The notes beneath the pieces were generated by a model, which saw only the letters and a list, made by a program, of their open reading frames with translations, was not told the DNA's origin and did no database searches. 64,000 nt of DNA, taken from assembly GCF_964204645.1 (NCBI RefSeq), contig NC_134025.1:9672001-9736000 (forward strand), given 5' to 3'. The position numbers were made by a program, and so were the translations under genes. Source of the stretch: Tubulanus polymorphus (taxonomy: Eukaryota > Animalia > Nemertea). Positions 9,001 through 36,988 of this stretch are shown piece after piece; position 1 is the stretch's first letter, and every line of letters starts with the position of its first letter.

Positions 9001-11945
9001 TACCAGTACCAGTTCTGTGGCATAGCTGAACAGCTTCCGATGCTATTGAATGATGCATGCAAATATATGTAAAACACCAAGACAATGAGAAAGGCATAAA
9101 AACGTATATTGCTCATGGATGAACTTCAAATTGCCATGTTGATATGAAATTTCAATATTTTTTTCGTGATGGATGCACATTGAGTGTAAATATACCACCT
9201 ATTCAATGAGAAACTAGCATGCAATATAAGAACACCTGATATGACACGGACAGATATGCATAATTGACCACAAGCTCACCTTTGGACATTTTATTCGTCG
9301 ATCTCCATCCAAAAATGGATGCATAAGCATAAACTGATGTAACGATTTCAGGCATGAAGTCTATAGTTAAACAAAACAAAACAAGCAATACATGGTTAGT
9401 ATTTAATGAGTGCAATTCTACGGAAGCTTTATTCGCTTTCTGAGCCCATATACTATACGATGCCATTTAACAAATTCAATCTAAAAATCGTACCAATTAA
9501 ATATACCGGTATCAATTTGTATTGATAGCCGAGTGAATGTGTTCATCTTGCAAATACAGGTAAATGATATGAGACTTTTGAATTCAGAAATAATCTACCG
9601 GTAGTATTAATTTCACTCTTCTTAAAAGTTTTTCCTGATGCAGGATTCACTCTGGTAATTGGAACGATTTCATGTGTCTAAACTGCTTAAAAGCATCTAT
9701 TAGCTGCCGTTAGGTTTTTAGCTCATTAAGTTTCAGTGCACTGTATTTTCTTTGGTGTATTTATTGTTATCATCACGTGCACAGGTAACAAACATTTTAT
9801 TTCAATCAATAAAGGATATCATTTTATCAGTGATCATCTTTAGAGGAAGGAGTCAAGCCCGTCGAAATTCACCAAGAGATACAAAGCACAGGTAAGTACA
9901 TACAGTAAACCATCAATCAATAAATTGATGCCGAGTTGGAAGATGCATCAAAGTGCTTAAATAATACAAGCCAAATAGAGCGGTCAAGTTTAAATAATGA
10001 TGCACTCCTCTTTTACATAGGGGTGTCTGAAGCGTAAGAATAAAGTACACAGATAGGACATGAGGATTTTTACCTCCTCAGTGAGCACTGGAACCTAAAA
10101 TATGTGCAATAAAAATATTTTCGATTCATTAGGTGATAATAACAATTGAATAAATGAATATGAATTGTAGTGGCTTATCTATCTTCAGCACAGTTGACGG
10201 CTATCATTAGGACGCAGGCTTCACATCAGTCTATCGATCAAAACCAATTATCGCCACAAAAAATGCCACCTCATAAACCATCCAGTAGTTAAACTAATGG
10301 ATGGATCATGCGGTAGAATATGGTGAAAAATACGTCAAACAATTAGTGCACTGATTCACAAATTGCCATGTGCCTTACAATATGAAGTGCATTATGGACA
10401 AAAATAACTTGTAAATAAAAATGGTGTAAAATTTCTAAACTCCCATGATGTAAGACTAGAATATTAAGCAACTGAAAAAAATTCATCTAAAATAAACTTG
10501 ATGCTTACCTTCGGGTCAGGATTATCCGGATCAGGATAAGCCTTCATAAATTGAGCGACGTATGTCATAATGGACTTCTCATCTGGTTTATCCATATCAA
10601 CATCTGTACAAATTGATGACAAAATATCATATCATACAACTATCCATGGTAAATAAATATACATGTATTATCCCTAGGTCTGTTGGGAACATTGAATTCA
10701 TTGGTACCCAGTTCCAGTTACGGGCAAATTACAACTTTCAAATTAAAATCAGATGAGTACCTTCTGGATCCAACAATCGAGGGATTCCGAGGTGGCGTTC
10801 AGCTTTGCTGAATGCATCTTCGAGATTCTCACGGTTACTCCTACGATGGACTTCATCCATATCGACAATATCTGGACGGACATTGTGTACAAGGGCATTA
10901 AATGCAACACCATCCCTCCAACTTTTACCAAAATCTTTCACTGGAACGCCGCTTTTGCTGTGAATGATAATAATAAATTTTTCAGAATTTACAAAAAAGT
11001 CATGACCACTAACTTCGTTTAACAAATTTTTCTCTAGCTTAACGTTTTGCTCAGAATACTCACTCGGTAACAGCTTTTTCAGCCCAGACAAGCAGGGCTT
11101 TCTTCGCTGTCATTTTGAAGCGTTGCAACGAAGAATCTCCATCTTGTAAATCCAGCCCAGCGAGTGCAGCTGCTGAATTTTCTTCGATCTAATTGAATAA
11201 GAGCAAAGATGTCTTCTTGGCAAAATTTGTTCGAAAATATCTATAATACTGAACAAATTAAGACACAAGGCTTTATGTGCATTTTTCAGTACATTTTTTG
11301 AATGTTACATATTTCAGCTATTCCAAATCAATCTTGTATGACAATCTATGAAGATAAAATCTAGACAAGTAAGCTAAATACCTGGAAATACAGAATAATT
11401 GTCCAAACGAGACCGAGAACAATTGACGGCTTGCCATCTGCGATGTCGGATGGATTTATGTTGACTAATTTGATCTTTTTACTCTCCAAAAAATCTAAAG
11501 ATGTTCTGATGTTGTTTAAGAAATGCACTCGCTGCAAGTGTTTCGTTCTTTCATGCGGCTGAAATGAGCAGGAAAAATTCGATAACATATTTGAAACAGC
11601 CACCCTATAGTCGAATTGCATTCATAATGGACTCACCAGTTTTTCCCCGGACAACACCTCAAGCAGCTGCAGTAACATCACCCCATTTTTGATATCATTG
11701 AATAACTCTGTTACCTTCGAAGGTGGATCATACTGAAAGAAGTATAACAATAAAAGGCAGAGATTAGTTAAAGGTATTTTGAAAGTTGGGTCTTAATTTT
11801 CTAAACTGAATTGTTCATAACAGACACAAATACATAAGAAATATATCAAAAGCAAATAAGGAGTAATATCCCGAGATACTTACATTACATAGATAGGAGT
11901 TGATCCAGTTTGTGAAGGTCTTTTTCTGCACTCTTTCTTGTTCAT
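1..11945 (-). CDS. SYNE1: Nesprin-1/MSP-300/ANC-1-like giant spectrin-repeat protein, constant exons (CH1, CH2, first spectrin repeats); continues beyond position 1
   Basis: Exons read by eye with consistent phases: 11945-11884 (EQERVQKKTFTNWINSYL), 11732-11637, 11558-11382 (KIKLVNINPSDIADGKPSIVLGLVWTIILYFQ, typical of nesprin CH1), 11188-11064, 10957-10761 (DFGKSWRDGVAFNAL, CH2), 10603-10509 (DKPDEKSIMTYVAQF), 8521-8381, 8229-7912, 7797-7516, 7400-7301, 7176-6971, 6873-6718, 6596-6435, 6348-6022, 5937-5794, 4634-4467, 3948-3814, 1449-1288, 1174-954, 874-766, 224-1. The later exons encode Trp-anchored spectrin repeats. The KASH end is not in the window, so orthology rests on the CH-domain sequence. 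Confidence 0.88.
9280..9360 (-). CDS. Candidate 81-nt cassette exon of nesprin (TSCLKSLHQFMLMHPFLDGDRRIKCPK)
   Basis: Acceptor ctatag, donor AAG|gtgagc, phase 0-0, open in the nesprin frame, in the linker between CH2 and the first repeat. Confidence 0.55.
10074..10094 (-). CDS. Candidate 21-nt microexon of nesprin (VPVLTEE)
   Basis: ttttag|GTTCCAGTGCTCACTGAGGAG|gtaaaa; phase 0-0 matches the flanking exons. Confidence 0.6.
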
Positions 11946-12076
11946 CTAGAAGAAAAAAAAGTAATGCAATATTGAAATTAAGTTTTTCAAGAACCTAACT
12001 GCTGAAAGTAAAATATATACATCAAATTCTATATCAACATAAAGAGCCTTATAGTTTCAGGGGAAAAACAACATAC

Positions 12077-12197
12077 AAGAAACTCTCTTTGCAGGAAGCA
12101 ATCCTGCTCTCATCGTATTCTCAATTTTCCTCACGTCGAAACCGATCATATGACGTTCCTTTGGGAACTTTTTCCGCAGTTTCCACTTTAAATCCAT
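12077..12197 (-). CDS. Candidate alternative first coding exon A of nesprin (MDLKWKLRKKFPKERH...AKRVS, 40 aa)
   Basis: ATG at 12197; donor TCT T|gtatgt in phase 1; 131-nt intron to the common acceptor at 11945. Confidence 0.5.
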
Positions 12198-13435
12198 CAC
12201 TATTGCCACCGAACAATGCAATGCTGAACGCGGCAGTATTCGATATGATAAAAACATTCGTCAGTTCTACGCGAATCAGAATTATTTCATTATGTTAAAT
12301 AAATATCATACGTAATCTTCTTATGTTAAGTCTTCATGGGAAATTGAATTCATCCACATCGACCAAACCTCGGATGCTAAGACCACTTAGTGCTACCAAA
12401 AATGCCATTATAGGTGCAAAAAACTTTTAACCGGTTAATAACTAACCTTGTAGAATGAAGCGAAATAATTCGGTAGGATCAAAATGCTTATTAAGTAACT
12501 TGGCATACATTGATCAACATGTTTACAACTAGAAAACGAAGTTCAAGTCTTGCCTCTTAGCCTAACGAGTGGGAATCAAGCAATGTGGTTTACCTATCAA
12601 TACTCGTTCATTAGCATCTCACTGGATTTTTTTTTTGCTTATCGCCAATGAACAGTCGACCGCAAAATCAATAAATCAATGTGAAATCAACTGCACGATT
12701 AATTTCTTTATCGAGTACCAGCAGAGAAATTTACCAACGGGAGAATGATGATTTCTTAAATGCCTCGTACTACTTGAATAAATTGGGAAATTAAAACAAT
12801 TTGTCACAAATGAACTGAAAATTGAGAGTTCTGAGGTACACAAATTCAAGCCTGCAAAACTATTAGCTCCACATATTCTAACAAAAAATATTTTGCATTT
12901 CTTTTACCGTCGTAGTAAGAAATAATTCAGGCAAAGAGGCATTTAGTTATATAGAAAGGTATTTCTTTGTGAAATCACAGAAGAGGTCATGGAACGTATA
13001 ATTAATCACGTTCCAATATATGCTTATTGCATAGCAGGGGGCACTGAAATGTTTGAACTGGTTTAATGTTTAACCAACTTATTACGAACACTACAGAAGG
13101 GAAAAGACCACATATGGAAGCTTAGTCGGTGAAAATAATACTATAATCAGTAGTTTTTAACAAGAATTCATATTGATTGTTGTTGTATATTTGCTAACTT
13201 GATAAACATATAAATAAGTGGGGATTTTTTTAGATAGGCTTTTATCTTACATTCCATAAACGCAGTTCTGCAGGTCATAGCACTTTATCAATTAATATAT
13301 TTAAGAGATCAGATGAAGTAATCTAAGAATTTTTTCATTCTGTGAACACTCCTCTACTTAAAACTATACTAATGTATTAAACTGAAAACTCGAGAAAATT
13401 AAGGAACGCAAGAGAGGAAAATTGTAGGTGCATAC

Positions 13436-16154
13436 TTAACACATAGCCAGATTCCTCATTCTGTCCATGCAAAAGCTGATTTACCAGAGCAAATGGTTTG
13501 GAATCTACCGGTAAATTATAGGCAAGGTTTTCGCCAGATTCAGCAGTAACTGGTAAAATTGCCTGGACAAAATTGTGCTCTACATTAAGCAAATTCACAG
13601 ATGACTGATACACATCGTCGAAATCTTCAGCAAGCATTTCTAATTCGGAGCGAGTGGAAACGCCATCGCAATTAGGACTGCTAACGAAACATGGAGGACT
13701 ACGGCGTTCATTCTCTTCCAAAACATCAGTAAATGCCTTCTCCAACTGCTCCAAAACATTTGTTAAGTCGTTCAACTTGTCTAAATTGTCAGAGTTATCA
13801 CTCTCATCAGATGGCGAATGTAATACGGGATGTTCCAGTTCCGACTCCGAACAAGTTACTGTCGTGTCGTGAAAATTCAATGTATCACAGTCAGATGAAA
13901 GAAATGTCTCTGACGTGAAGTAGCCACTATCCTTACTGATATCCCAAGAACCTTTGTTAGCACTGCCTTCTTTAATGTCTAACCCCTTCTCTTGCATTCT
14001 AAACATTTCTTTGCTGATAATCTTAGGTCTTGCACCTTTTTGTGACCAGTCATCTGTGACAGGAACTGAAATTGTTTTGTCGTCATTCTCTTCAGATGAA
14101 TGTGTTAACTTAAGCGGAGATCCACTGGCATTTTGTTGTTTCCTTTTATTGACTACGGCATCATCATCATAGTCACGATTTGTCTCTGATGCACTATACC
14201 ATTTTTCATCGGCATCAGTTGGAAGAGTATACTTGAATTTATTGCTGACTTTACGTTTACCGCGCAAATTGAAATTCAATAATATCGGTTTGATGGCAGG
14301 CAGTTTCACAACGGTGCTTGATTCAAGATCTTTATAACTTGAAGATTCGATTCCAGTGGACATGTTTTCATTTTGAAGAAATTCTTCACCATCATTGCAC
14401 GTCAAATTGGTTTTTGATAATGTCCTTCTTCTTTCGTAGTTCCGATGATCGATTTCAGACATTCGATCAAGATTTGGAACTGTATCGGCTGAAGAGAATG
14501 TCATAACCATATTTGGACCTGTATCATCATTTATTTGTTCAACTGGAAACTCAGCCCCTCTGACATCAGCAACTTGAGAATTTTCAGCTTTCACTGATTG
14601 ACCAACAACTGAATAAACTGTTGCCATTTTCTGATCTTTCCCATATTTCAAACTGTCAAGGTCTGAACATCTATCGATATTTGGGACATTACCAGCAGGA
14701 GAAAATGCCATGTCCATAGTTGCTTCTTTTCTAGTCTGCGTTTCATGGAGCTTTCTTGTTTGTTCATCATTACTTAAGGATGGTGTTTTTTCTTCGAAAG
14801 GGACATTGTCAAATTCAAAATAAGGAAAGTTTACACAATCAGCATTCTCATATGATGAGTGAGGTTTGAAACTGTTCTTAGAATTCGTCAATTCTTTTGC
14901 ACATATTTCCCCTTCCTGATTAAGGACTTTCTCATTGTTTCTACTATCATCGTTTGATGTAGATTGTATATCACATGCAATCTGTTCAATTTCTTGTTCT
15001 CCATTATCATATGTCTTCATCCCATCTTTAGTTGATCCGCTTTCAGAAGTGAATGGTTCTAGTACTTGCACAACTTCATCAATGGTTTGTATCTGCTGTC
15101 TATCAGCATATTCTTCCATGAAATTAGAGCCATGAAACATATCATCATGATGAGGTTCATCATATCTATGACACGCGAGCGGCGTTATTTTGGCATTCAA
15201 GCCACTGCCACCATCAAGTGGACACAGATACATTGACGCGTGGGAAGTTTGATCATCCTCCAGAAAAACATCTTCTAGTACATCTACATCGAGTAAGTTG
15301 CTAGATATTTTCTCGTAGTAAATTTCATCACGTGTTTCTTGTTGAATTGTGTATGATTTGTAAGTTCTTGAAAAAGCTTGCACAATAACATCGGGATAAA
15401 GATCCGCTTCCTCGATTAATTCTTCACTATGCAAAGTATGTGTACGGACAGCCAATGGAGATTTCATATTCGCTCGCCCCTCTTCACCAAGCTGCAATTT
15501 TTGTTCAATATCAGATTTCTTCAACTCTGATGTACTGGTAGTGATGTTTTCTTTTTTTGATGGAGCCAAATCGGGTAGATGAGTTGTAACTTTTTCCACA
15601 TGTTTGATTTCAGAAGACTCTGAAATACTACTTTCTGAATATGTAGACCTAGGTTCTGCATTAACTTCAGTTAAAGTCTTTCCTTTGTAAAACTCCTTAT
15701 GAGATGATTTCTGAATGGTTTGTTTAGTTTTAGTTTCCAACATCTCAACCGATACTGTCGAACTATTGTCTTTGTCATTAACGCTTATAGTATGTTTCTG
15801 CTGCTCAATGGTACCCTCATGCTCGACGTCTGAAGTCTTTGTAACCTGATCCGATAGCGGAAGAACTAAATTCATCGTATGGTAATATTCTTCATCCGTG
15901 TCCTTGCGTCGGTGAATTTTCTTGCGTTTCTGTGATCTTCTTTTTTCATTCGTCTCGTCGCTCCCTTCATCCGACTTGACTTCTTTATTCCTCGAGACTA
16001 GTTTCGGCGCATTTTCTTCATCGCACCACTCGAACACGTAAATGAATGTTTCGCCGTTGATGTTGATGCGACAGCGCACGCGTTTCTTGCGCCTAAACTT
16101 CCATCTCGGGATGCGGATGCGTATGTGACCTTCGGCTTGGACGTTCCACGGCAT
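13436..16154 (-). CDS. Giant alternative first coding exon B of nesprin (906 aa, acidic/low-complexity)
   Basis: 925-codon ORF on the nesprin strand; donor TTA A|gtatgc in phase 1 lies about 20 codons before its stop and joins in frame to 11945. Confidence 0.72.
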
Positions 16155-16663
16155 CGTCGCAAAAGTTCAATCCCCAGCTACTTCAGTATACTGGTATCAG
16201 TCGTTTCTTCCGGCACATGGAATAACCCGAACGAAACAAGAAAGAATTTTCACCGCACTGGTGTGAATGAAGATCGATTGTGAAGAATTTTGCACAATAT
16301 GATAGGTCATTGAAAGGTAAACAAAGAACATTATCATTCCGTAGATACACACTTTTCACAAACAGTCAATATAGGCATATCAGGTTGCCACGTTTCATAC
16401 AGTTATATGTGACTTGCATTAAATTTTCAGGCTCTTAAATCAGTCAAATAAAAGAAGCAAATATTCCGTGCCGTTTGTCAAGCAATTGACCTCACACTGA
16501 CAGGAAAATTCCAACCTTAGCCATAATCACGCGAACCAGAAATGGCCGTATCTAAATCGACCACTAGAAATCAGATAAGAACGTAAAACAAACTTTCGAT
16601 AGAAGTGAATTACATTTGCTACTTCAATTTTTTCGTAGATGAAAAGTTCTTCGAGGAACTTAC

Positions 16664-17054
16664 CCAATGTTACTATTTCGATAAGTAAATACTTGGTTCC
16701 GGGCAACAGTTTCCGAGGATCATAACAAATTGGACACACAGAAAATGGGTTGTTCGCGAATTGGCAATTGGAGATGTCACCAGATACAGCGTGTTTCTCA
16801 ACAACGGCGAGAATTTCACCGGTATTTGAATTGACCACCGACCTTTGCCCGTTATAATCGGCAAACGAAATTGCGGGCGGGAATCCTCGACCATCAAGAC
16901 TTCGATACCTCACAACTGCTGGTAAATCATCGAACCCTCCGACCATCGAATTCAGTAATCCGAACACGAAGGTCTTAACTTCTAACAAAGGAAATAAACT
17001 TTTTACTCCTCGTTCATTACGTTGATGGTCGTCATCTGCCTCTTCCGGGCTCAT
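16664..17054 (-). CDS. Alternative first coding exon C of nesprin (130 aa, MSPEEADDDHQ...EIVTL)
   Basis: ORF 16527-17054 contains a consensus donor TTG G|gtaagt in phase 1 at 16663. Confidence 0.65.
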
Positions 17055-17734
17055 TAGACCGATTATACACTTTTCCGAAAACTATTGACACGATTATATC
17101 AACCCGGCTCCCTGGTCACAGTACCATCATAATGCATGAATGCATGTACAGGTAAATAAATGTATATTGAATGAAGTTTCGAATGATTGCTGGTAGGTAG
17201 CGAAAACACCTGGTGTTGCGAACATCTGACACCACCCGAGCGATGAACAAATAGATATACTTTTTAAAAAAATCTGAGTTTACAACAATAACTATCGGTA
17301 CCTAAATCACCAATAAGATTATTATCTAACTAAATAAAGTGAACCTGTTGTTTTGTAACAATGCATAGAATACAAACATGAAAGCTTGTTTTTTCGAGGA
17401 TCAACTAGCTTGACAAACAGTGCATGCAATTTCCAGTATCATCTTATTGATTTGAAAAAGTTATTTCAGATTTTTGTCCGCACCCCTAATCATATGGAAA
17501 ATAATTGTTTCAAAATAAATGATATCAAGGCACGGTCACAAAATGGGCCTACATTATCTATTGCGAAGAGATTGATAATACATAATTGAAATTCCATTCT
17601 TTAAAAATAGAAACACTAGATGGATGAGCAATGAATCATATGCGTATATACATAGATATTTGATTGATGAAGTTATAGGTATAATACAATATACGAGATA
17701 TTTCATACTTCATGCTATAAACTAATCCGTCTAC

Positions 17735-17795
17735 CTTGTAAATAAGCTATAATATCTTCAACATAGGGGGAATCAACTTCTTCCATAGTGAGCAT
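17735..17795 (-). CDS. Alternative first coding exon D of nesprin (MLTMEEVDSPYVEDIIAYLQ)
   Basis: Donor CAA G|gtagac in phase 1; the spliced product ...DIIAYLQ-DEQERVQKK resembles the vertebrate nesprin-1 N-terminus (...DIANVMQRLQDEQEIVQK, recalled). Confidence 0.75.
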
Positions 17796-19006
17796 CCATA
17801 TTACATGAATGCAGCACCTAGTAAAGCATCGATTTTCTAAAAACAATTGAATTTTCACAAAGTTATCGGGACGTTGTAAAGATAAGCTATTCGGTGTATA
17901 TACCAATGTGAAATGGATAACTATCCCTTCTATAGAATTATGGGATGTTTCTCGAAGGAAATGTTGTTCGGCAATCGTCGACTTAATCTGAAGAGAAACA
18001 GAAATAAATGCCGTACGAAATTTTAAATCGCGCAAGGTAAATAGTATGCGTTGAATGGTTCCAGATTACTGGTGGTGAATATACTAGCGCTGCCACCTAC
18101 GAATAAACAAGCAAACTAGAGCGCTTCCTTGGCAACAAGTTTACGCACCCAGCGCTATGGCGTTCATACATACTTAGTGGCATTAACCCTGTAATACTCT
18201 GTAAACCTTTCAATCAAAGATATTACCGGTATCCCTGTCAAAGGAATTAGTATTCTGGCATACAGAAAATGAAAGAAAATTCAGGTGATAAACTTTCCCT
18301 CTATTATGTTGTCCATCGATGAAGCAAATAATTATATAAGGAATTGGCCGAAGAAGTTCACAAATGTACAATGTACCACAGATGCGGGCTAAAGAAATTT
18401 CTACACAGGGATATTGATATTTTCTTCTCTTTTAAGATCATTGCATTTGAATAGAATTTTGAAAAGTAGATTTCTTCGCATAATATTCGAGAGGGACTAT
18501 TCTCCATTGCAACTGATTTTATTTTAAAATTCACCTTGAAATTTGTTCAGATCATTTTCGCAAAATCACACTGCATAAAATTATTATCACCCTGGTAGGT
18601 GGTACATGTTCAATGATTAATTATGCATGCGAACTATGTTTATGATTCGGAAATGTTCTACTAACATTTATTCAACGAATTAATTGCGCGATCTCTCAAT
18701 CTTAAAAATGTTTGCTTAACTAAGGAACCCACACACACGATAACAACTACATGTGCCTTTGCATGTGCTTAGCGTGCAATTTAATCATTCATTAAGGATT
18801 TCATTGGAATCGTTTGCCGAGCCGAACTGTCAATGTTAGAAATGAAGTGATGATTGTTGTGCGTTGTACACAAAAACCGAAAATACAGTTCTTCGATCGG
18901 AATCTAAAGAAAATCCAGAACACCGATCGAGGCGCCTTCGGCAAAAAACATGGTTATGACATGGCAGAAACGCTTCTCTAAAACACATGCTAAGGCTATT
19001 ACAAAC

Positions 19007-21170: not shown

Positions 21171-21315
21171 CTGGCTCAGGGGGCGCATCTGACCTGAGAT
21201 AGTAAATACCATATTTGCACATGATATCCATATTCGAGCTGCAATATTCATACTCGGGCATGAAACCAAAGCCCAAAATATGTCTCCTCCATGATAAAAC
21301 GGCTTCATTCCTCAT
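21171..21315 (-). CDS. Candidate alternative first coding exon F of nesprin (MRNEAVLSWRRHILGFGF...DAPPEP, 48 aa)
   Basis: Donor CCA G|gtaagc in phase 1 inside ORF 21124-21381. Confidence 0.55.
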
Positions 21316-23094: not shown

Positions 23095-23152
23095 CTCTGT
23101 ACTTATGAAATTGGTTTTCCAATTTCTTCGTAGCACCAACCAGCGAGGCCAT
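23095..23152 (-). CDS. Alternative first coding exon G of nesprin (MASLVGATKKLENQFHKYR)
   Basis: Strong start context caaaATGG; donor AGA G|gtaaga in phase 1; 58 nt. Too short for the ORF track. Confidence 0.72.
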
Positions 23153-24203
23153 TTTGTTCGTTATAATCTCTCTACGATAAAACTGTCTGAAAAACGCGGC
23201 CCAAAAAGTGGCCTACTGCCAAATACGCAGGAATTCTGGTATCATGAATAACTCAAAAAATAATCTTCTCTTCGAAATCGTTTTTCGTTAAGTTTCTATG
23301 ATGAAAAACAGCCATTGGTTCGACGACCAATCTTCGAAGTTGGCTGACTATGAAGTGTCGGAATTAAAAACATAGCATTTGAGGGCATTCGTTCTATACA
23401 CATATAAAACCATACCAACGAACCCGTCACGGTATTGTATAAGGCCTACATATCCAGAAGTACAAATATGAAGACACATAATACGCATACATATATTGCA
23501 GGTTCAGGCAAAATCGAGGGACCGGAACGTCACCGGATTCCCATAAAAGTAAAAAGGTATTCGCAAAGAATAGTTAAATCATATGGCATTTTCTTTCGAA
23601 AGAAGTATTTGCCGAAGTGTGCCAAGCATTCAGTTAAACTTGATTTATTTCTTAAAGGTTATTTTTTTAAATGAAAAGACACAAAAGAAACGTGAAAGTC
23701 AACTTTCGATATGCATTTCATTCCTTTCTAAACGTATATCTCACCTTCATTTAAACGACACTTTAAATACAAACTCAATTGGCACCTTTAGGAACTTTCT
23801 TTCAACAGTTTCTCAATTTATATAAACTCATTAGTAAATTTGACGTTAAATATCTACACAAAAAAGAGCCGTATAAGCTCTGGAATATTCCTTTTTCTAC
23901 ATTGAATTACCCCTAGCGCATGTATGCATCACTCTATCTTAGATTTATCAACAAACATTGAATTCCTGAAAGCTTGAATTTGATTATTCAGTCATGAATA
24001 CCAGGTATCAGTTAAAACTTGTCTACAGTATTTCCTATTAAATTTCATTTTAAGATACGAAACATAAGACGAAATTCTTGAAGACTTCCATTATTTCTAT
24101 AAGACGTGTGAATGTCATGTGTGAGGATTTGTTAAAATCTGTAACAAATCAGTAGTCTGATCCCCAGCCTAGAATTCAAATAACCAGCTATACTTTTCTT
24201 TTT

Positions 24204-26910
24204 TTAATCTTAAAATAGGGATTGACCCTGTTAGATTTTTTGTTTTCATTAGGCGTCCCTTACAAACCCACCAAACCTGCCGGGAGCGAAACAGGGGGTC
24301 GGATTTTGAAATCGAAAATCGAAGTTCAGATATAGTTGTGTGATCGGCGGTCGAAATTTTGTTTAAGTCTTAGTACATAATAAGCCTTTTTACAGTTTCC
24401 AGGCGCCATTTTTTTGGGTACCCGCCGGGTCCGCATTGTTGAAATTTTTGTCCCTATTTTTCTCCGGTTTAATTTTTTTATTTCGTTCATATCTCTGGAT
24501 TTGATTAAGATAGAAACAAAGTTAAAATATCGATGAACTCGGCTGATAATAAACTTTTTTATGATATTACTCATTTGTTAAGTTAATGCAACAATGCGCA
24601 CTGGTGAAGTTATAAACATTGATAACGTCTTCCCGATAATTCAACTTGAATTATTGCTCATCTCATTCAAAAGTTCGTAATTCTTACAAATTTTAATCTA
24701 CATTTTTGAAGTTTTCAGGATCAATAGCCATCTATATGTGGTCCTATATACCTTTTACCGTTTTCAATTATCCGTATTAGTTTTTAAGTAGTTGCGAGTC
24801 AAACTTCCAAAACACGTTTTCCCGGGTCCCCTGCGTGCATCTATATATCAGGAAATTTCACAATTTCACCAGTCCCTTCTTCGTTGAAAATCAATTTTTT
24901 AAGTAACCAGGGAAATAAGGGCTCCTAGGTTTTTGAAAAATGGTAATTAAAGATATATATTCTCTAGGATTTGTCAAAATAAACGAAATAACCCAGGCGT
25001 TGCTTTAACCAGCTATCTAGGTTCGCAACAGAAATTATCATTTTGTCCAACATGTTTCATTCGATTCCAAAACTGCACGTACGGCTATACGATTGCAAAT
25101 GTGAAAGTCAGACATCATGTGGCACATGTATGAGAACCACAGTCTCAATGCTGCGTCGTATTGCCGTCGCAATTTTACATGGCTACTTACGTGAAGTGGG
25201 CTAATACAGACCTTGAATACAGGCCTTGAGAATGTGCCAAATCTCAAAACAACTATCAAACGCACGAGATCAATTTTGACAGAAAGTAAACGAATGTTAT
25301 GTTCCTCAATATATACTAATATATTCAAATTCAATTTGAAACACCTTCCAGCTCGTGTCACGATCAGTAATAAAGATCGAACATCGAACATTCTCAAAAA
25401 AACAAACCCGATCCAACGGTTTGCAAGCGTCAAGTTTGACACAGCCATGGCTGCCTCCATTTGCGTGGAGCTGCTGCTGAAAATTCAAAAATGTAAATCG
25501 GGTACCGGTATTTAACCGAGGACCGAGTGCTCGCCATTACACCATGGTATTTCTGATGGTTATTTTTTGAGCAACTGGCTCCAGAATCACCTGCCAACGG
25601 CCATATTTCATTGATGCAATATACCGGTACTGTGAAACAATATAATATTGACGGGAGATCAATGAAACTTAAATGCCTGACACTAGAAGACTTATTTCGA
25701 CTTTTTTGACTATCTTAGATGATTGGGAGAGGGGTCCAAAAATAAGGACATTTTCCGTATATTAAGGCTGCGAGTAGGGTGCTCCTCGGTGTTGAAACAA
25801 ATACATCCAAAACAATTTAATTTGCAAAAGGATGAGTGTTAAATTTGTAGGCTTTAAGCGATCACTGTCTTGACAAAGATGGTAACCTTAATGGGAAGGA
25901 GCGGGGGTCCGGACTACCGACCCTCCAAACCCGTAGTCTGTCCCTGTGTTACTAGAAATATATCTCTATTAACCATTTTTTCAAATAACTAGGTGCCCTT
26001 GTTTCCATAGTTACGGAAAATTTTGATTTTAACAAAGTAGGACCGGTTGAATTGTCAAATTTCTTGATATAAATATGCAAACATGATACTCTAGAAAACG
26101 TGTTTTGGAAGTTTGACTCGCAACTACTTAAAAACTAATACGGATAATTGAAAACGGTAAAAGGTATATAGGACCACATATAGATGGCTATTGATCCTGA
26201 AAACTTCAAAAATGTAGATTAAAATTTGTAAGAATTACGAACTTTTGAATGAGATGAGCAATAATTCAAGTTGAATTATCGGGAAGACGATATCAATGTT
26301 TATAACTTCACCAGTGCGCATTGTTGCATTAACTTAACAAATGAGTGATATCATAAAAAAGTTTATTATCCGCCGAGTTCATCGATATTTTCACTTTGTT
26401 TCTATCTTTATCCAATCCAGAGATATGAACGAAATAGAAATATTAAACGGGGAAAAAATAGGGACAAAAAATTCAACAATGCGGACCCGGTGGGTACCCA
26501 AAAAAATGGCGCCTGGAAACTATAAAAAGGCTTATTGGAAATTTTGGTTGTTTTCAACCCCTGAAAAATTGTCCAATATGCCAAAGCCTTGATAAGAAGA
26601 CAGGCGATTGCTTACTGACCAAAGTTTAAAACTTCAAAACGTAAAACAAACATAAATAGAAATTTTGGTTTATAGTTGTCAAACCACGGAAATATTTCCA
26701 TACGCTAGCGATAAGTGTAATGTTCACATAATAATGTTCGAAGATAAGATTGAGCACAAAAACACAACACTCATATGGAACAGACATCAAAATGGCCCTT
26801 GTTTCGCTCCCGGCAGGTGTGGTGGGTCTGTAAGGGACACTCAATCAAAAAATGAAACGAAATTTACCAACCAAATAAATAACAGGGACAATTCCTATTT
26901 TAAGATAAAA
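24204..26910. repeat. Large inverted repeat (arms ~24204-24970 and ~25950-26910, ~1-kb spacer); foldback-like element or two inverted copies of one repeat
   Basis: 24380-24820 is the reverse complement of 26095-26535, and ORFs 24326-24574(-) and 26341-26592(+) translate to near-identical peptides. Outer and inner arm segments match with more divergence. Confidence 0.9.
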
Positions 26911-27065: not shown

Positions 27066-27248
27066 TTTTAGATTTTTTTTATAAAACAAATTCTCGATTT
27101 TAAAGTTCTCTTAATTCGTACATAGCGGGTTTTTATCTTATTATGCCACATCTTCTGAACAATAAATGCGGCACATTATTACACCGCCCACGAGGTTTTC
27201 ATCGGCTCCATCTATATACACTATATACAACTCAATTCTAGATCTTAC

Positions 27249-27336
27249 CTTTGTACGTTTGCCGTTTATCATCGACTACCTGCGAAGCCTGCAAGATGTC
27301 TTCTTTTTCGAGGCTGACGCTTCGAACTCGCGACAT
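27249..27336 (-). CDS. Alternative first coding exon H of nesprin (MSRVRSVSLEKEDILQASQVVDDKRQTYK)
   Basis: ATG at 27336; donor AAA G|gtaaga in phase 1; 88 nt; CpG-rich context. Confidence 0.72.
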
Positions 27337-28238: not shown

Positions 28239-29841
28239 AATCTAACACAAGAAAAATGATAACTAAGAGAAGAAAAACTATGCATAGGTTGTTTAGCATA
28301 TCTTTAACAAATCTAAGACTTCCGAATGATTTCAACTAGGAAATAAAAAAATTTGCAAAATTTTTATTAGTCAATCCATGCTATCTCGATTAAGAAAATT
28401 TTAGCAGCGTTAATGTCAACACTTTGTCTTTGAATTCGTACAATATGACTTGATTTAACTTGACTAATAATTGCTTTGGGGGTAGTGGCACTCTTCCATT
28501 CAGCGCGGATTATAATGTCGGACAGGAGAAGTCGAATTAACATAACTGAAATTGCGCGATTGAAAAATGAAATAGACCTCTGGCAGAATTCCAAACGAAA
28601 ATTCCTCTAAAACCACCTTCCGTCAAGATTAAGAACTATTGATATATCTATGATGAACTTCAAAATACAATAAGCCCAGAATAAAGTGTTAAACAGAATT
28701 GAAACATATAAACAGCTTTTTTCAAAAACGTTTTGTACGGCTTAAAATTCAGGAAACATCAATATATAGAGAGACTACATTCTAAGTGTATATCATTATG
28801 TACATATTTAAAGGTTTTAACTACTTATAACCCTCAAACCAATTCTAACTGTTATAAATCTAATGCTGATCCTATTCTTAATTTTAAGATTTTAAAAATC
28901 AGTTATACGGATATAGCCGAACACTTCCGCTAACATAAATGGAGAAATTTGTAAAAAAAAAATCACGAAATTCATATTTCAACTAATTACGGCAGGTACT
29001 TGAAAAGAAATAAACTAGAACAGTATCGCCTGTAAAAGTCCCACGAGAATCAAAATTATATGCATTCTTGATACGATTTATGAGACATTTTCATGTAAAC
29101 TATAAAACCAGTTCATTCATTCGAAATATTTCTGAATCTCCCGAACTGAATTAATAACGATTTTCTATTCTAGTTCTACGAATGTTCACTGCGGCGCCAC
29201 TATCTAACAGTATGAAAGGTAGAAACTTCCAGAATATCTTAACTTAGGTGCGAAAGTTCACCGTTGTTTTTTTCCATTATCACCAAAAACCTTTCGATCA
29301 ATTCAAGAACTTTTGAACTTTTTAAGAAACACAGTTATAACGTTTCTTTTCAAGTTGCCTTAAAGAGCAAGTGGAAAAAAATGATAATAATTCCAGATTC
29401 ATAGTAACGTTTTTTTCTTGATCAAGTCCGCTAAAATAAGTAAAATATATTGTCTACTGTTAGATAATCTGACTAACTAATATTGAGCTACTTCATAATA
29501 TCAAATATTTAAGGTATATTGCGGTAAGCTGCCTGTCTGACATTCTTGATTGACTTCAACATTATGGGAGGGGAACGTTTCTGAATCCGGTTTACATAAT
29601 TTCGATCGTTCTTAGGAATATTTGATTAACCGACATCGGAAAAAACGGTTACAGGATCGCGATAACAATAGGCGAAAAAAGAGTTTATCGGTAAAACGTC
29701 ACATAAATATCGACGGTTATGTAGAAAAGTTTGCGTTGCGGTGACTTGTTACACAGCGTATCCTCTGGCAACGACCAATAGGGGACTGTTATATGTCTAT
29801 ATATATATTCGTCCGCGTGTTAAGTATGAGAAAACGACTAC

Positions 29842-29899
29842 CTGTCACGGAAGTGCCAATTCTCTTTCCACTTACACTAACGAACAATGTATTAAACAT
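29842..29899 (-). CDS. Weak candidate alternative first coding exon I (MFNTLFVSVSGKRIGTSVT)
   Basis: ATG at 29899 and donor ACA G|gtagtc in phase 1; the donor is weak and a competing phase-0 gtaagt lies inside. Confidence 0.3.
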
Positions 29900-31681
29900 A
29901 CAGCTATATGAATAGAATTGACAGACGAACATTAAACATTTTCACGTCATAGACAAGTTTTAAGCTACTTAAATGCCGATCCCTGCAGTCGATCGCGTTC
30001 GATTGTGACCGTAAGCCGCAGGGGGCGTTCTGCGACCAGAAGGTCTCGGGTCTTTGCGCCTTTATGTGTAAAGTTTCACACCATTTTGCGTATAAAGGAT
30101 TGCATTAGGCAGCCGTTAATTCATCAATGAACTTTGAATTAACTTTTTGCGTGGGCTTGTTATTAATTCAATTATGATCCACGCAGTGATTTATCCACGT
30201 AATTCGTGGTTTTGTAATTTCTTAAACACAAACTTTGCCCCCACAAAATCTCTACGTTACAAGAGTTTAATATTTCAGTTCTACATTGGAAAGTTTTCTA
30301 CAAACCTATTTATAAGATAATTCAAATCTTTTCGAATAGTTTATATAATCGTCCTCAGTTCTCAGATATACTCAAATTAAAAATCAGAAAATCAGGAACA
30401 CTTTCATAAATAAGTTTAAAGACCAATCATAATTGTGCCTTAACTATTTCTTATCTTCAGAACTAACCTATAAACTGAGTCAAACACCTAGAACAAAATT
30501 ATGACAAGTCATCGAAGATCGATGATCATATTATCATTTAGGGTCGTCATTTTATTGTAATTTTCCCTATCATTATAATTATATTATTATTATCTTTATT
30601 ATCACTATATCGCTATTTTGTTTTTGTACACTATTTGTTTTTTGTTTATTTTTCATATCTAGGGCATTCCCCCTTTTTTAGTACAGCCTTTAGGCTTGGA
30701 GATATCCTTTCAATTGTGCAGGGCAGTGTACATTAAAGCAACATTCATAAAAATCTTGTACATATATTGGCAAATAAATATATATTATATATATATTATT
30801 ATCTAATCATTCTCATGTGAAACATCCCATAAAATTTAAGATAAGTCACAAATCCAAATTTCATCCAAACAGAAGACATCGACCGTAATAACAACAAATT
30901 CTCTTGACCCTGGAACCAGATGCAAGGTTAACTGTTCATAATGAATGAATCGATACGTACAGAAATCATTTTCCCTGAACTATCATCAGCACACCTTTTC
31001 ATAATAAAAACACGGTCGCGATTCATTAAATAAGGAAATTTGAAAATGTTTATTCTACGGGATTCAATCGATAAAGGATCGATCACGGATGCTAAAGGAA
31101 AAAACCTGCAAAAATATATGCAATATCATGCGTCGGTAATAAAAACAAGTACCCGTAATATGATTGATACAAGTAGTTTGCGTGTGGCAGATCAAACTTC
31201 ATTATTCATCACCCAGTTAAAACTGTTCCAAGTATGGCAACACTAGAGACGACTGCTGCTACGCATCAATAGCAATCATGAAAATTAAATCCAATAACCC
31301 GCACGCTGTTAACTACACCATAAAGCTAGATACACTGAATTCAGCAGTGTTAATGACCAGTATTTGTGACGAAATTCATCAATTTCTAAAATGCACAGAA
31401 TTGACACTTCGATATTTAAGATTACATGGCCGAATAACATACTGTCTTACAAACATCTCGTGCGCGTAGGAAGCAGTTAACAAACGTCTAGACGTTGAAT
31501 ACAAATTTCAGTAGTTATCATCCGTATTGCATTTTTCAATTGAAAATGATTCATTATTATGTCAACATCATTGCTTCAAATTTGTCGTAATAAAAAAGGC
31601 AAAATTCCTCATAACATTTTTCTACATAAAAGCCATACGGTCTATCTAATAAATTCTAGAGAAAAATCTTCATATCTTTAC

Positions 31682-31745
31682 CTTTTTTCTCTTGTATTTT
31701 AAGGTACACGCTGCCTCCGTCTGATCCGCTACTCGATTTACGCAT
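31682..31745 (-). CDS. Alternative first coding exon J of nesprin (MRKSSSGSDGGSVYLKIQEKK)
   Basis: ATG at 31745; donor AAA G|gtaaag in phase 1; 64 nt. Confidence 0.72.
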
Positions 31746-34479
31746 ATTTGAACGGGGTATAAAATTCTCTTCAACACAAAACTAAAACACTTTATCCGAT
31801 TATCTTTTCACTTATATCGAATTTCTAAATTCGTTGCGTTGTCGTCGGCTAGCTAATGCGTAAAAAAAAACGTGTATCTCCTGAGTTGTTGATGATGTTG
31901 CTTCGGGTGTTAAATGCATTCAGAAACTTCATCCAATGAGAGAGAGATGTTTCACAGGAATAGTCCTTGTCACACACTGCTGCAAGCCTGGGCAATCAGA
32001 CCGTCACTACTACAGTACTATTAATAATAATACGACACTGACAGGCAGCTACAGGTATAATTGTTCCACGCGAGTATTCAACTGTGACGAACGAACGCTA
32101 CTACTCACTCACGCTCTAATCATAAATTTAATTTTGCTGCAAAGATTAATTGTAAGCTAAAGGGACACGCGTGAATTAAGGTCGATTGTTTCACCGGGTG
32201 TGGAATCTGATTAAAATGTCGCGAAAGCTAAATAACTAACTACCGTAAGCGACGAATAACCTATCGGTTATGTGTTTGCGTATACCTTAACTTTACCGTA
32301 CTACCACCTCTTCAAGGCTTTTACACGTGTAAACAACTAAACAAATAAACGTTCAGTAATTCGAAAACTCAAATTTTATTATAGAAAATTTGCGAATTTT
32401 CACGCGTCCCATTTCAATTTTATCAACACTATATTATCGATTTAGAAAAAAACGTTTAAAATTATGTAATCATGATATCATTGAATATCAAGTGTTTTTG
32501 ACGATATTGCTATGAAAAATAATTGTTTCCCATCAACAGATAATTGAACTCTTTTAGAGAAGGCGTAATTAGTTCGAACTTAAATTCAATGAGGAAAACA
32601 AGAATGTGAGATCAATAACAAAATATATAAGTAGAGAATCCTAGAGTAATGCACCAAATGACCTGAGAGTGACAAGGTACAAAGTTTGAAGTGGGCCATA
32701 AAAACAATCTTCCAAATTCTAAATCTTCACACTGGAAAAACAATCTTGAACAACTATTAACCAAAAGTTATCATAAAACACATGATTCGATTATATGAAA
32801 TACGGTCCCATACATATAACTTTAATAAGTCAATAATGTAAGTAAAGTAGTCAGAATTGATAAAAAGTAACCTCAAGATCTTTGTAAAGCCCCCCTCAAA
32901 TAATATGAACACTATTGCCAAATATGATTTCATATTTGAATATGTCTACGAACCAAAACTACATATTTTCTGCTAAATAACATGAAAATCTTTTAAAGGA
33001 AATAGCCATGCATTTAGTAAGCATGGTCTTATATCAAAAGTTGCTCTAGCCCTGAAATCAGAGATAGGGTCTCAAGTGATTTGACGGATACTCATTCAAA
33101 ATTTAACGAAAACTTTACCCCTATATATGGTTTCACAAGCAATGGCAAACCCAGGGGATGCACTGGGAACACGTGGACCGCTCTTCCTTAAGTCCTCATA
33201 AATCTTGCATATCGATTTTACACAAATTTGTGCGAACGGTTTTCGCGATCATCTTGATTTGATAATAACCATAGGACCTATTAGTGATTTGAAATGAAAT
33301 TCGACGAACGGACGACATCGGAGAACCCTGAAACCCATCAGCTCCGCTGACCTTTGGTCACAGCGGATATAAACATATTGTAAAAAAAAAACATGAAAAG
33401 ATATATGGGTATAAAAAACATTTCCATGAGAAGAAAATTGATTTTGGTTGAATGAAAAACGTCAGAAAATACCGGATAACCTAAAATATATGTGTATTTT
33501 ATTGCTTCGAGATCGACCATAAAATATATTGCAAGAATAGCGAAAAATCAGAACGAAAACTGCACAGTACAAATCAGAAGACATAACTGTTAGGAGTTGA
33601 AATATCTGTCGCGAGGCCAATTAAAAAGATTCTAAAATAAACCTTTTATTTCTGCATTTATGGGCTGGTAAATGGTGCTATAAAATGTACACATTACACA
33701 TCCAAGATAATATACGTGCCATTCAAATACCAGTTTAATCTAAACGGTAAATCTAAATAATTCACTCCGCACCGTTCAAATATAAATTCTTTAAGTTGAA
33801 TGTATACTGCGGCGCTAGGGCTGTAATTGTAAAGCAGAGGATTTTTATGAGAAATCTGGCACCAGTTTAAACGAAATTCAAAGAACTCCTAATTATTTCA
33901 TTTTCGGCAAATTACCACCAGGGTACTAACCAGGCCATTAATGCAACTTCAAATTGTCCAGGATATGCTCCAATTCTTTCAAGATTTCAAAAATCATCTG
34001 GATGATTTTTACATTAAAAAAGAACTTTCATTTTTCAGCTTTACGCATATGTAAAGTTACCAGTATATTTATGATACAAAACATACAAATAACAGCACTT
34101 TTTAGTAGCTTCGATCAGTATAATAATGATAGAACTAAAGGCTAAGCATTTTTGCCCTGGGGACATAAAACATTATATCTGAACGTGAAATGATTGTCAG
34201 TCAAGCTGCATAGTTTCCAGGTAGGAATAGAATTTTCCCGACAGGTTTTAGTTGATCAGCGAAAAATGAAGTGTCTCAGTCAATTAAAATCCACATCGAT
34301 AGAACGCTATTGACAAGACGGCGTAGCTCCCTGGCACTTTAAAGAAAAATTGGCACTTTATCAACATTAGTTTCCACACCATTGTAGCGGAGCGCCGCCA
34401 TTTTTTACTTGTAGAAGTAGAGGTCGTACAGAAACGAATGCAGGAAATGTACATAACAAGTATGCTAATCATAAGGAAA

Positions 34480-34483
<4 letters not shown>

Positions 34484-34571
<88 letters not shown>
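34484..34571. repeat. (TA)n microsatellite with one interruption
   Basis: Directly visible. Confidence 0.98.
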
Positions 34572-34574
<3 letters not shown>

Positions 34575-35292
34575 AAACGATTTGACAAACGATCAACGAA
34601 ATTCAACTAATTCAGAAAATACAGTGATACCCATACGCGTTGTTCAATGATTTTTACATTTGACAACGATAATGATCTTATACGACATGCCTTCTTAAGG
34701 CTCTAATGCAAACAGCTTGAATGCAGATCTCTTATATATCTCACTGTGCACAGATGACATATCTTATTGAAACGTTTGGATAACCTTATTCAAATATGTC
34801 TTACAACATATCGAACGATAAAATAATGCGAACGGACACCTCAGAAACCTTTCCTGCCGTGATATTGGGCTTTAATTCAACTGATTACACGTCAATCAGT
34901 TGAATCACGCTTGAAAATTACTGCAGGTACATCGATTCAGCCATCTGTGATAATATACCACGGATAACCGATTGGCTCATACTTGACCTGGATAAAAAAT
35001 GCATCTTGCGCTAACAATTTCAGCGAATCTACTCACAATTCTGTAGTTACAACAATGAGCACCCAGCGAAAATATTGTGGCAGGCGAATTGTGCATATCA
35101 AGATGAACTAATGGCAAATAAAATAAATAATAATAACCCTTATGTTTCAGTACTGATTTTAGTTTATCTGATAATCCGGCTTATTTTTTCGATGAGGAAT
35201 GGTAGAATGGAGTTTTACATCAAATATTCAGGCATGTCATTTGGGAAAAGCCGGTGGTCCTCGTAGGTAACATGATGTTCGAACGTACTCAC

Positions 35293-35539
35293 CAGCGAGA
35301 CTATGTATAGCAGCAGCGATACCGGCCCCGGTTCGACTTATATGCACCGGGTCTTGTAATACTGGAGGTAGAGGGCTGTTAGATCTGGGTAGCTGTATTG
35401 GGCTGCACGCCCTCAATAGCTGCGGACTTGCTGTAAGTGACCGATACGACCCGGCTGGTGTAATCGACCTCGGCGATGCAGCGCCTTCCACGTCGGAAGA
35501 CGGACTCGCAAGAGCCGGACTGCGCAAATTTCGTTTCAT
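35293..35539 (-). CDS. Alternative first coding exon K of nesprin (82 aa, SP-rich)
   Basis: ATG at 35539; consensus donor GCT G|gtgagt in phase 1. A strong acceptor (ttttgttttttttgtag-like) at 35577 implies upstream non-coding exon(s). Confidence 0.75.
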
Positions 35540-36988
35540 CCTCGCGAGACTCGATTCTAGTTTTCAATTGTCGATTCTACAAAAAAACAAAAATACACGG
35601 GTTTCTATAACCTTAATCGCATATTATCATATATATCGCTAAAATTCAGTTTCCTGGAAGCGGATCGCGAGGTAACCATGGCAACGAAACGTTTCCTTCC
35701 CATGACATGTTTCTACCATACAGAAAAAGAAGGCCTTCAACATATGACGCCATAAACGTGTTGTCTGGATACCTATTAATAAACCCACTGAACTGTAATA
35801 ACTTTTCTTCAATTTCTCTTCGTCGTCTGATAAATTCATATAAATAAACTGAATTAATTCCCGCTGAATTAGAAAATGTTCGCGCTATCCTACATTGCTT
35901 AACATTGTATTACACCAGTATTAAAAAATACAACGATAATGATACAGAATCAAAGAAGTCGAATAGATCTCGACCTATTTCAACTGCCGTTGATCGACAT
36001 AAAATCAATCACTAACCTAGCAGCATCCGCATATCATCACTCGTAACCTGATATTGACACGATGCAGCTATACATAAAGCCGAGACATTACAATGAACAC
36101 CCGCAGTTCAGAAATAACTGATCGGCATTATTCAGAGCAAACTAGGGGATGTTTATTGCTCGATAAAATGGTTAAAATCCGTCCTATACAAAACTCATGA
36201 TAATCGATAGATGACACGGATAATATCCACAAATAATCGAATTATAGCTCACTTCAATAAACAACGTGATGAATGCTACCTTCGTTCCAATTAGCGATTA
36301 GCGTAACAAGTACATCCCATCTGTCGGTGTAAGCCGTATTTTTACGACGGCACCGGCATCAATAAGCGACATAGAAACACCGCAGTTAATAAGAGAGTTC
36401 ACGCGCTTTCAACAGCATCCATTGTCAAACCGGTTCGCGAGCAAATGAGCGAACGCTTGATGGAATGGTTTCTCGTTGCGTCTTGCTAGTTTTTATTGAG
36501 AGCAGCACACATATCAAATGAATCGATACACACTCACTCACATCATCGCGATGAATGCAGTTATGATAATATTACCTTTCATTGATCTTTCAAAATATAA
36601 CTGCTCATTTACACGACTTGTCGATCAACGATATTAATAACCGACACGCAGGGGTTCGACTGTGATGAATATCATTAAATCTGTTACATACAATCACAGC
36701 GACAAATCGCTGTCAAGAGCAAGGTTAATCAAGGAACAAGTGGGTCTGTGGATACAGGAAAAATAACCATGACTGGTATTGCGTGCATTTAAAAAAGTTG
36801 CCTATTCATGATTTGAATGTATATTTTTCCATTAAGTTATAAATTGTTTACATTGTTTTCCTTATAATACAATAAATCAATGTTTATCAAATGTTTCAAT
36901 ATTTTGGACATTTTTACAGGTGCTTTTCTTCAGTTATCATTTCCTAAGAATATAGGCCTACCTAGCAACAAGCCCAACAACTCTAATC

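What the first reader, a model, noticed from the sequence alone, without database searches (positions are those of the whole stretch)
11945..35576. Array of ~11 alternative first exons giving the nesprin a library of interchangeable N-termini
Seen: the CH1 exon starts at a phase-1 acceptor (tag|AT GAA CAA..., 11945) with no start codon in frame. Upstream on the same strand are separate ATG-initiated ORFs ending at phase-1 donors at 12077, 13436, 16664, 17735, 19007, 21171, 23095, 27249, 29842 (weak), 31682 and 35293, encoding 19-906 aa. Each joins in frame to xEQERVQKKTF. Several sit in their own CpG-rich patch (about 16.0, 19.1, 27.3 and 35.4 kb), as separate promoters would. Established: plectin, dystonin/MACF1 and Drosophila shot use alternative first exons spliced onto the CH1 exon to target isoforms; clustered protocadherins use variable first exons on constant exons. 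Inference: this is a much-expanded variable-head/constant-rod system for a nesprin, and I do not know of one described at this scale. Caveat: the short exons were found by looking for phase-1 donors (selection bias). However, the longer ORF-track ORFs here independently carry a phase-1 donor upstream of their stop.
Basis: partly seen in the sequence, partly recalled or inferred. Interest (0 to 1): 0.88.

Follow-up and report, generated by a model that had tools for sequence, protein, structure and literature searches.

The report
Nesprin gene with six swappable heads
A nesprin (nucleus-to-actin linker) gene of a marine invertebrate has a row of at least six short start exons that likely splice one at a time onto the same actin-binding exon, so each would swap the helix predicted to touch actin, a design well known from plectin but reported for nesprins with only two starts in the papers I found.

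Summary
The gene (minus strand) is a nesprin-1/Msp300 orthologue; its closest named relative is a nemertean protein (53.5%). All 11 ATG-ORF/phase-1 donors exist, and such sites exceed chance (12 vs 3.6±1.9 in shuffles). Only six hold up on independent tests: 35293, 31682, 27249, 23095, 19007 and 17735. They have coding-like codons, CpG-richer upstream DNA, and last residues matching pre-CH1 tails of other animals' nesprins. A public protein model of this locus joins 27249 to 11945. The 906-aa ORF is coding but its phase-1 donor is weak; 16664 and 12077 are open; 21171 and 29842 look like chance. No RNA data were available. The design is not new in kind or scale: plectin has 12 first exons (9 coding) at the homologous junction, Drosophila Msp300 has two upstream starts, and scallop RefSeq models show three heads. 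The split codon is the first CH1 residue, so each head likely supplies a different actin-contacting extension of helix A. The scan holds similar arrays in unrelated genes, none for a nesprin. Verdict: a new variant of a known kind.

The parts
11884..11945 (-). Common (constant) exon starting CH1, xEQERVQKKTFTNWINSYLCN; phase-1 acceptor at 11945
   Evidence: acceptor score 12.6 bits, scored with itself in the training set; P0421 residues 30-50
1..11732 (-). Further constant exons: rest of CH1, CH2 and SYNE1-type spectrin repeats; the gene runs off the window
   Evidence: 21 exons join to 1163 aa with 0 stops, best hits Msp300/nesprin-1; Pfam CH, Spectrin, Spectrin_SYNE1; P0421 maps across them
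35293..35576 (-). Head A, 82 aa, S/P-rich, ends AIHSLA; ATG 35539; probable acceptor 35576, so a first coding exon behind an unseen 5'UTR exon. Well supported
   Evidence: donor 9.1; tail P=0.001, best class mollusc/nemertean S/P-rich heads; codon P=0.065; acceptor and in-frame stop
31682..31745 (-). Head, 21 aa. Well supported
   Evidence: donor 6.6; codon P=0.014; tail P=0.004 in both profiles
29842..29932 (-). Listed head, 30 aa. Probably chance
   Evidence: donor 7.9 but non-coding-like codons, P=0.80; tail P=0.91 and 0.78; T at -3
27249..27336 (-). Head, 29 aa; joined to 11945 in a public protein model of this locus
   Evidence: P0421 residues 1-29 match 100%; donor 10.0; codon P=0.004; AlphaFold helix 8-48 continuous into CH1
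23095..23152 (-). Head, 19 aa; strong Kozak; acceptor candidate at 23186. Well supported
   Evidence: donor 9.7; tail P=0.001 and 0.008; codon P=0.12
21171..21315 (-). Listed head, 48 aa. Doubtful: strongest donor, but otherwise unlike a head
   Evidence: donor 12.0; codon P=0.53; tail P=0.94 and 0.99; 3 prolines in the last 10 residues
19007..19214 (-). Head, 69 aa, S/T-P-rich and basic, in the strongest CpG patch; shares SGWLSPG with the Lineus head. Well supported
   Evidence: donor 7.3; codon P=0.002; tail P=0.026 and 0.001; alignment to the Lineus head P=0.027; upstream CpG 98th percentile
17735..17795 (-). Head, 20 aa (17 aa from the better-context second ATG); frame open 90 codons further up, acceptor candidate at 17987. 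Well supported as a head, 5' end unclear
   Evidence: donor 6.7; tail P=0.006 and 0.002; codon P=0.14
16664..17054 (-). ORF, 130 aa, with a phase-1 donor. Open: head, or phase 1-1 cassette from acceptor 16981
   Evidence: donor 6.5; codon P=0.067; tail fails; no Pfam hit; fold model pLDDT 43.5
13377..16154 (-). Long acidic ORF (906 aa to the weak phase-1 donor at 13436; own stop at 13377). Coding, but its link to CH1 is unresolved
   Evidence: chance of the open frame ~1e-24 per start; codon P=0.002; donor 1.8, and a better donor at 13485 (6.9) is phase 0; no Pfam or Atlas hit
12077..12257 (-). Listed head, 60 aa. Open to doubtful
   Evidence: donor 5.0; codon P=0.10; tail fails; could be a 1-1 cassette from 12223

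Best explanation
This is a nesprin-1/Msp300 gene in which at least six separate start exons likely splice, one per transcript and probably from their own promoters, onto one shared exon that begins the first actin-binding (CH1) domain. Shown: the gene's identity, the shared phase-1 acceptor, six heads with good donors and conserved-type tails, and one junction (27249 to 11945) in a public protein model. Inferred: that the other five junctions are used, and that they are driven by alternative promoters. The split codon is the first residue of CH1, so each head supplies the 10-20 residues that are predicted to extend CH1 helix A. In beta-III-spectrin and utrophin that extension contacts F-actin, and in plectin 1a it binds calmodulin. 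The heads would therefore tune actin affinity, regulation (two carry 7-8 S/T-P motifs) and targeting by tissue, while the rod stays constant.
For: Gene identity. Excess of phase-1 ATG exons: 12 vs 3.64±1.89. Six heads pass a tail profile from 39 other-animal heads (P 0.001-0.026, null 1402 sites), a second profile from 37 further heads (P 0.001-0.030) and a null of nesprin-rod 12-mers (P 0.001-0.046). A scan needing no ATG gave 11 of 122 sites; the 7 with donor >=6 are the six plus borderline 20730, all with an in-frame ATG. All six have positive codon scores against a null mean of -0.24 and upstream CpG in the 71st-98th percentile. P0421 joins 27249 to CH1, and that known head is among the weaker scorers on the tail test. 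Reading any of the six after a phase-1 head through its candidate acceptors gives stops. Pecten RefSeq X1/X2/X3 have three heads at this junction; Trichobilharzia and Schistosoma mansoni have two each. Plectin heads join at the homologous D. AlphaFold gives one helix over residues 8-48. PMC8810934 passages: S37-A52 helix contiguous with helix A at D53 binds actin, and truncation abolishes binding.
Against: No RNA evidence: five of the six junctions rest on sequence statistics. How P0421 was annotated is not known, and its 8 cluster mates were not read. I chose the training heads by hand after seeing the candidates, dropping models that looked intron-derived, and the two profiles share head classes, so they are not independent. 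Whole-head similarity to named relatives is weak (no BLAST hit better than E 0.02, and that best one is to the doubtful 29842; Lineus alignments P 0.027 and 0.047). Acceptors upstream of 35293, 23095 and 17735 leave room for shared promoters. No promoter was mapped. The actin-tuning role is carried over from spectrin, utrophin and plectin.
Confidence: 0.72

Rival explanations
1. Only two or three heads are real (27249, 35293, perhaps 19007), as in fly, flatworms and scallop; the other short ORFs are chance.
For: About 3.6 filter-passing sites are expected by chance; the largest count seen in one other species is three; 23095 and 17735 have non-significant codon scores.
Against: 12 observed; 31682, 23095 and 17735 each pass tail tests at P<=0.015 against both nulls, while the three unlisted filter-passers have negative codon scores and none reaches P<0.05 on the general tail profiles.
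Confidence: 0.1
2. One reading: nine to eleven heads, including the 906-aa acidic ORF, 16664, 12077 and 21171, all splice to 11945.
For: All have phase-1 GT donors. The 906-aa ORF is clearly coding and lies in sense inside the head intron. Long disordered heads of 250-720 aa occur in insects, crustaceans and flatworms. 21171 has the strongest donor.
Against: These five fail the tail test; 13436 scores below all 20 constitutive donors and a better nearby donor is phase 0; 21171 and 29842 have non-coding codon use.
Confidence: 0.1
3. The heads are mutually exclusive internal exons chosen by splicing behind one or two shared non-coding 5' exons, not products of separate promoters.
For: Acceptor candidates lie upstream of the ATG in 35293 (35576), 23095 (23186, 9.9 bits) and 17735 (17987); ATG-less donors lie at 36253-37670.
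Against: 73 AG sites in the region score >=6, so nearby acceptors are common; local CpG enrichment upstream of all six; plectin and Msp300 use separate starts.
Confidence: 0.08

Closest known systems
Vertebrate plectin (PLEC) variable first exons
   Same: Many unrelated first exons spliced separately onto the exon that begins CH1: 12 exons, 9 coding (PMC3695321, PMC8468861, passages). Fish plectin heads join at the homologous D of DERDRVQKKTF. Heads act with the adjacent actin-binding domain (PMC8391331, passages).
   Different: Here the constant part is a nesprin-1 spectrin rod, in an invertebrate; six heads are supported against nine coding in plectin; no isoform function is known.
Drosophila Msp300 (nesprin-1 orthologue)
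   Same: Orthologous gene; CH-containing isoforms start at exon 1 or exon 3 (PMC8616381, passages); two arthropod head types appear at the same junction.
   Different: Two upstream starts against six or more here; the passages seen treat CH+/CH- and KASH+/- groups, not the heads.
Scallop Pecten maximus RefSeq XP_033734089/91/92; trematode nesprin models
   Same: Three (scallop) and two (Trichobilharzia, Schistosoma) heads joined at xEQERVQKKTF; head 35293 resembles the mollusc S/P-rich class.
   Different: Automatic database models, not a described system; fewer heads in the members I could read.
Human nesprin-1/-2 alternative UTRs (PMC3388047)
   Same: Alternative initiation diversifies nesprins.
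   Different: The starts seen in the passages are internal (rod and KASH-end isoforms), not heads swapped in front of CH1.
Clustered protocadherins / UGT1 variable exons
   Same: Variable first coding exon, constant downstream exons.
   Different: Those variable exons are paralogous tandem copies encoding whole domains (recalled; search listing only). These heads are short and unrelated: no long direct repeats, no pairwise hit under E 0.16.

Membership tests
Nesprin-1/Msp300 | N-terminal tandem CH domains followed by SYNE1-type spectrin repeats | tested here: met
   (P0421: PF00307, PF25034, PF00435)
Nesprin-1/Msp300 | Best similarity to nesprin-1/Msp300 rather than plectin, dystonin or spectrin | tested here: met
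   top hits; top 25 hits all nesprin/Msp300-type; 53.5% to Lineus Msp300-like. No tree was built.
Nesprin-1/Msp300 | C-terminal KASH domain | tested here: inconclusive
   The 3' end lies outside the window. P0421 lists no PF10541, nor do the Lineus and mollusc models of similar length; KASH-less isoforms exist in fly (PMC11230431).
Plectin-type variable first exon locus | Several upstream coding exons each in frame with one common CH1 exon | tested here: met
Plectin-type variable first exon locus | Each exon spliced separately to the common exon in transcripts | tested here: inconclusive
   One junction in a public model; serial splicing is out of frame for the six; no RNA run available
Plectin-type variable first exon locus | Own promoter and tissue pattern per exon | not testable with these tools
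   Only CpG enrichment as a hint
Protocadherin/UGT1-type cluster | Variable exons are paralogous tandem duplicates | tested here: not met
   only a weak 19007/35293 likeness (E 0.16)

The most novel reading that the evidence does not exclude
Nesprin-1 has carried a small library of alternative pre-CH1 heads since early bilaterians, at the same phase-1 intron that plectin and shot use. This lineage has expanded it to eight or nine, including a 906-aa acidic disordered head. One LINC-complex gene would thus set actin affinity and partner choice per tissue by swapping the actin-contacting helix, a layer of nesprin regulation that the nesprin papers I read do not treat.
Probability: 0.3. Interest if true: 0.6.

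Novelty: new variant of a known kind. Interest (0 to 1): 0.42.

Why it matters
The nesprin isoform work I read concerns presence or absence of the CH and KASH ends. This locus, with the relatives fetched here, suggests a further variable: interchangeable peptides placed exactly where tandem-CH proteins make an extra actin contact. Two head types also show up in vertebrate nesprin-1 database models, so the idea can be tested at once in fish, bird or fly with short CH1-CH2 constructs. The architecture itself is familiar from plectin, so a specialist would find it neat rather than startling.

Tried and rejected
No whole genome is held, so no search for paralogues or the KASH end. Sequencing runs: no RNA holder listed. 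The three runs laid are contigs that run through introns, with no joint into 11945 and none matching a listed donor among the joints shown; this says nothing on expression. I considered reading the patchy depth of X2/X3 as open chromatin and dropped it: library unknown, depth is one figure per contig, and only 1 of 19 contig pairs checked began at GATC. Pfam: no family for the 7 candidate heads scanned of 11. Atlas: no usable hit for the 906-aa ORF; its first 60 residues were not searched. Single-sequence fold of the 130-aa ORF: pLDDT 43.5, not searched further. Rfam: 0 matches in 11900-41000. BLAST of the 11 heads against 39 relatives' heads: nothing convincing. Inr/TATA-like motif scan (motifs recalled): sparse and not discriminating. 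Serial splicing of heads: rejected for the six, possible for 16664 and 12077. Origin by recent tandem duplication: rejected. An extra head upstream of 35293: none found to 41000. Helix propensity of the tails (recalled scale) separates only 21171 clearly. Print searches for a nesprin multi-head array: searches found none; subscription papers are missing from the library, and supplements of PMC3388047 and PMC8616381 (isoform tables, exon map) were not read.
Full report
The gene. The feature lies on the minus strand. From the acceptor at 11945, 21 exons picked by eye join into 1163 codons without a stop, running off the window at base 1; the best hits among fetched proteins are Msp300/nesprin-1 (39% to Dreissena). 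Pfam finds CH and spectrin repeats, including a weak SYNE1-type hit. The closest named relative is a Lineus longissimus (nemertean) Msp300-like protein, 53.5% over the model, so the source is likely a nemertean or a near lophotrochozoan. No tree was built and no KASH end is in view.

The observation. The acceptor reads TTCTTCTAG|AT GAA CAA, and all 11 of 11 listed donors are GT sites in phase 1 closing an ATG frame of the stated length. With a donor matrix from 20 constitutive donors of this gene, 9 of 11 score 6.5-12.0 bits; 12077 scores 5.0 and 13436 scores 1.8, below every constitutive donor. Sites with donor >=6 and an ATG frame >=19 aa number 12 in phase 1, 7 in phase 0, 5 in phase 2, 3 per phase on the plus strand, and 3.64±1.89 in 300 shuffles (P<=0.003). 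The excess is real, but 3-4 chance sites are expected, and three unlisted sites (33352, 20730, 12447) pass the same filter.

Sorting real from chance. Three tests do not use the donor. (a) Codon usage trained on the constant exons: positive for 35293, 31682, 27249, 23095, 19007, 17735, 16664, 13436 and barely 12077; negative for 29842, 21171 and all three unlisted sites. (b) A profile of the last 11-12 residues of nesprin heads from other animals: 35293, 31682, 27249, 23095, 19007 and 17735 pass (P 0.001-0.026 with 39 heads; P 0.001-0.030 with 37 further heads and P 0.001-0.046 against rod peptides); the other five listed do not. I picked the training heads by hand after seeing the candidates and left out models that looked intron-derived, and the two sets share classes. 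(c) CpG in the 400 bases upstream: 71st-98th percentile for those six, 34th-57th for seven of the other eight, 75th for 29842. A scan of 122 donor sites to 41000 without asking for an ATG returned 11; the 7 with donor >=6 are the six and borderline 20730.

Outside evidence. P0421 (6915 aa, 9-member cluster, source withheld, which the tool does for proteins the window encodes) begins with the 29-aa head 27249 joined to DEQERVQKKTF. Relatives show the same design. Pecten maximus RefSeq isoforms X1, X2 and X3 carry three unrelated heads at this junction. Trichobilharzia regenti and Schistosoma mansoni each have a long (338, 319 aa) and a 20-aa head. Two head types recur across molluscs, across arthropods and across vertebrates. 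Head 35293 matches the S/P-rich mollusc/nemertean class best, and 19007 shares SGWLSPG with the Lineus head.

Alternative, not serial. Reading the candidate acceptors upstream of the six heads after a phase-1 exon always meets a stop. 16664 and 12077 have internal acceptors that would make in-frame cassettes. The 35293 exon has an acceptor at 35576 and an in-frame stop before its ATG, so it is likely a first coding exon behind a non-coding one; 23095 and 17735 may be too. The heads are not duplicates of each other.

The long ORF. 16154-13377 is coding beyond doubt, acidic (net -58) and without family hits. Its phase-1 donor is weak, a better donor at 13485 is phase 0, and a poly(A)-like ATTAAA lies at 13067. 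It may be a giant head (relatives have 250-720 aa heads), the start of a CH1-truncated isoform, or a nested gene. I cannot decide.

Mechanism. A scallop nesprin aligned to solved structures puts the split-codon residue on the D of plectin DERDRVQKKTF (alignments printed) and, from the ranges in the table (39 against 47, assuming no gap), on D53 of beta-III-spectrin in 6ANU. PMC8810934 (passages of abstract, introduction, results and discussion) defines D53 as the first CH1 residue and reports that S37-A52 form a helix continuous with helix A that binds actin; truncation abolishes binding there and lowers it in utrophin and filamin A. PMC8391331 (passages) reports that plectin 1a head residues 23-37 become helical on calmodulin binding and that the 1f head primes rapsyn binding. 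AlphaFold on P0421 1-280 gives one helix from residue 8 to 48 (block pLDDT 67-85 over 11-40; mean 82.4), and its best fold matches are plectin actin-binding domains (TM about 0.4, likely because the two CH domains are placed differently). The intron thus cuts exactly between the variable actin-contacting helix and CH1. I infer that promoter choice swaps this helix and the disordered stretch before it, tuning actin affinity, regulation and targeting. This step is untested.

Known or new. Plectin has 12 variable first exons, nine coding, spliced separately to exon 2 (PMC3695321 and PMC8468861, passages), so neither design nor scale is new. Drosophila Msp300 has start sites at exons 1, 3, 18 and 21 (PMC8616381, passages; PMC11230431, passages). 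Human nesprin UTR variants in the passages seen are internal (PMC3388047). Six searches found no nesprin array of this size, within a library that lacks most subscription papers. The scan's index has no nesprin case but lists variable-exon arrays in unrelated genes of an annelid and an octopus (unchecked). Verdict: a plectin-type locus on a nesprin, with six well-supported heads, up to three more open and two probably spurious; a new variant of a known kind; interest 0.42.

Noticed in passing
window:24201-26912: High-copy element with 497-bp inverted arms (24379-24875 / 26040-26536, 94%) and outer inverted pieces, depth 1,000-12,000 in X1; looks like a non-autonomous DNA transposon inserted between heads 27249 and 23095.
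   Followed up: partly
window:9280-9360 and 4467-4634 (minus): P0421 includes an odd 27-codon exon after CH2 and skips a 56-codon spectrin-like exon that keeps frame; both may be alternative cassettes.
   Followed up: partly
window:1-36000: CpG o/e falls from about 0.9-1.4 over the head array to 0.4-0.75 over the constant exons, the pattern expected of invertebrate gene-body methylation starting near 12-16 kb.
   Followed up: partly
window:37670-37743 (minus): Possible 74-nt exon with a strong donor (10.2 bits) and no in-frame ATG; could be an upstream 5'UTR exon for head 35293.
   Followed up: partly
window:12001 (minus): Strong alternative acceptor (10.9 bits) 56 nt upstream of the CH1 acceptor; its use after a phase-1 head would bring in a stop. 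An out-of-frame ATG sits right at 11945.
   Followed up: partly
window:40800-42637 (plus): Ankyrin-repeat gene with a weak C-terminal SOCS box, divergent from the nesprin 5' end.
   Followed up: no
window:45774-50921 (minus): SART-1 family gene, head to head with the spectrin gene.
   Followed up: no
window:53700-64000 (plus): A second tandem-CH spectrin-repeat gene, beta-spectrin-like by eye. Its head and CH1 start share one exon, and a CpG-rich patch at about 55.0-55.9 kb in the 4.9-kb next intron may be an internal promoter.
   Followed up: no
P0309, P0439: Gene models of a centipede and a fish appear to fuse two alternative heads in series before CH1, a likely annotation artefact of the same architecture.
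   Followed up: no
window:34484-34571: (AT)n microsatellite.
   Followed up: no
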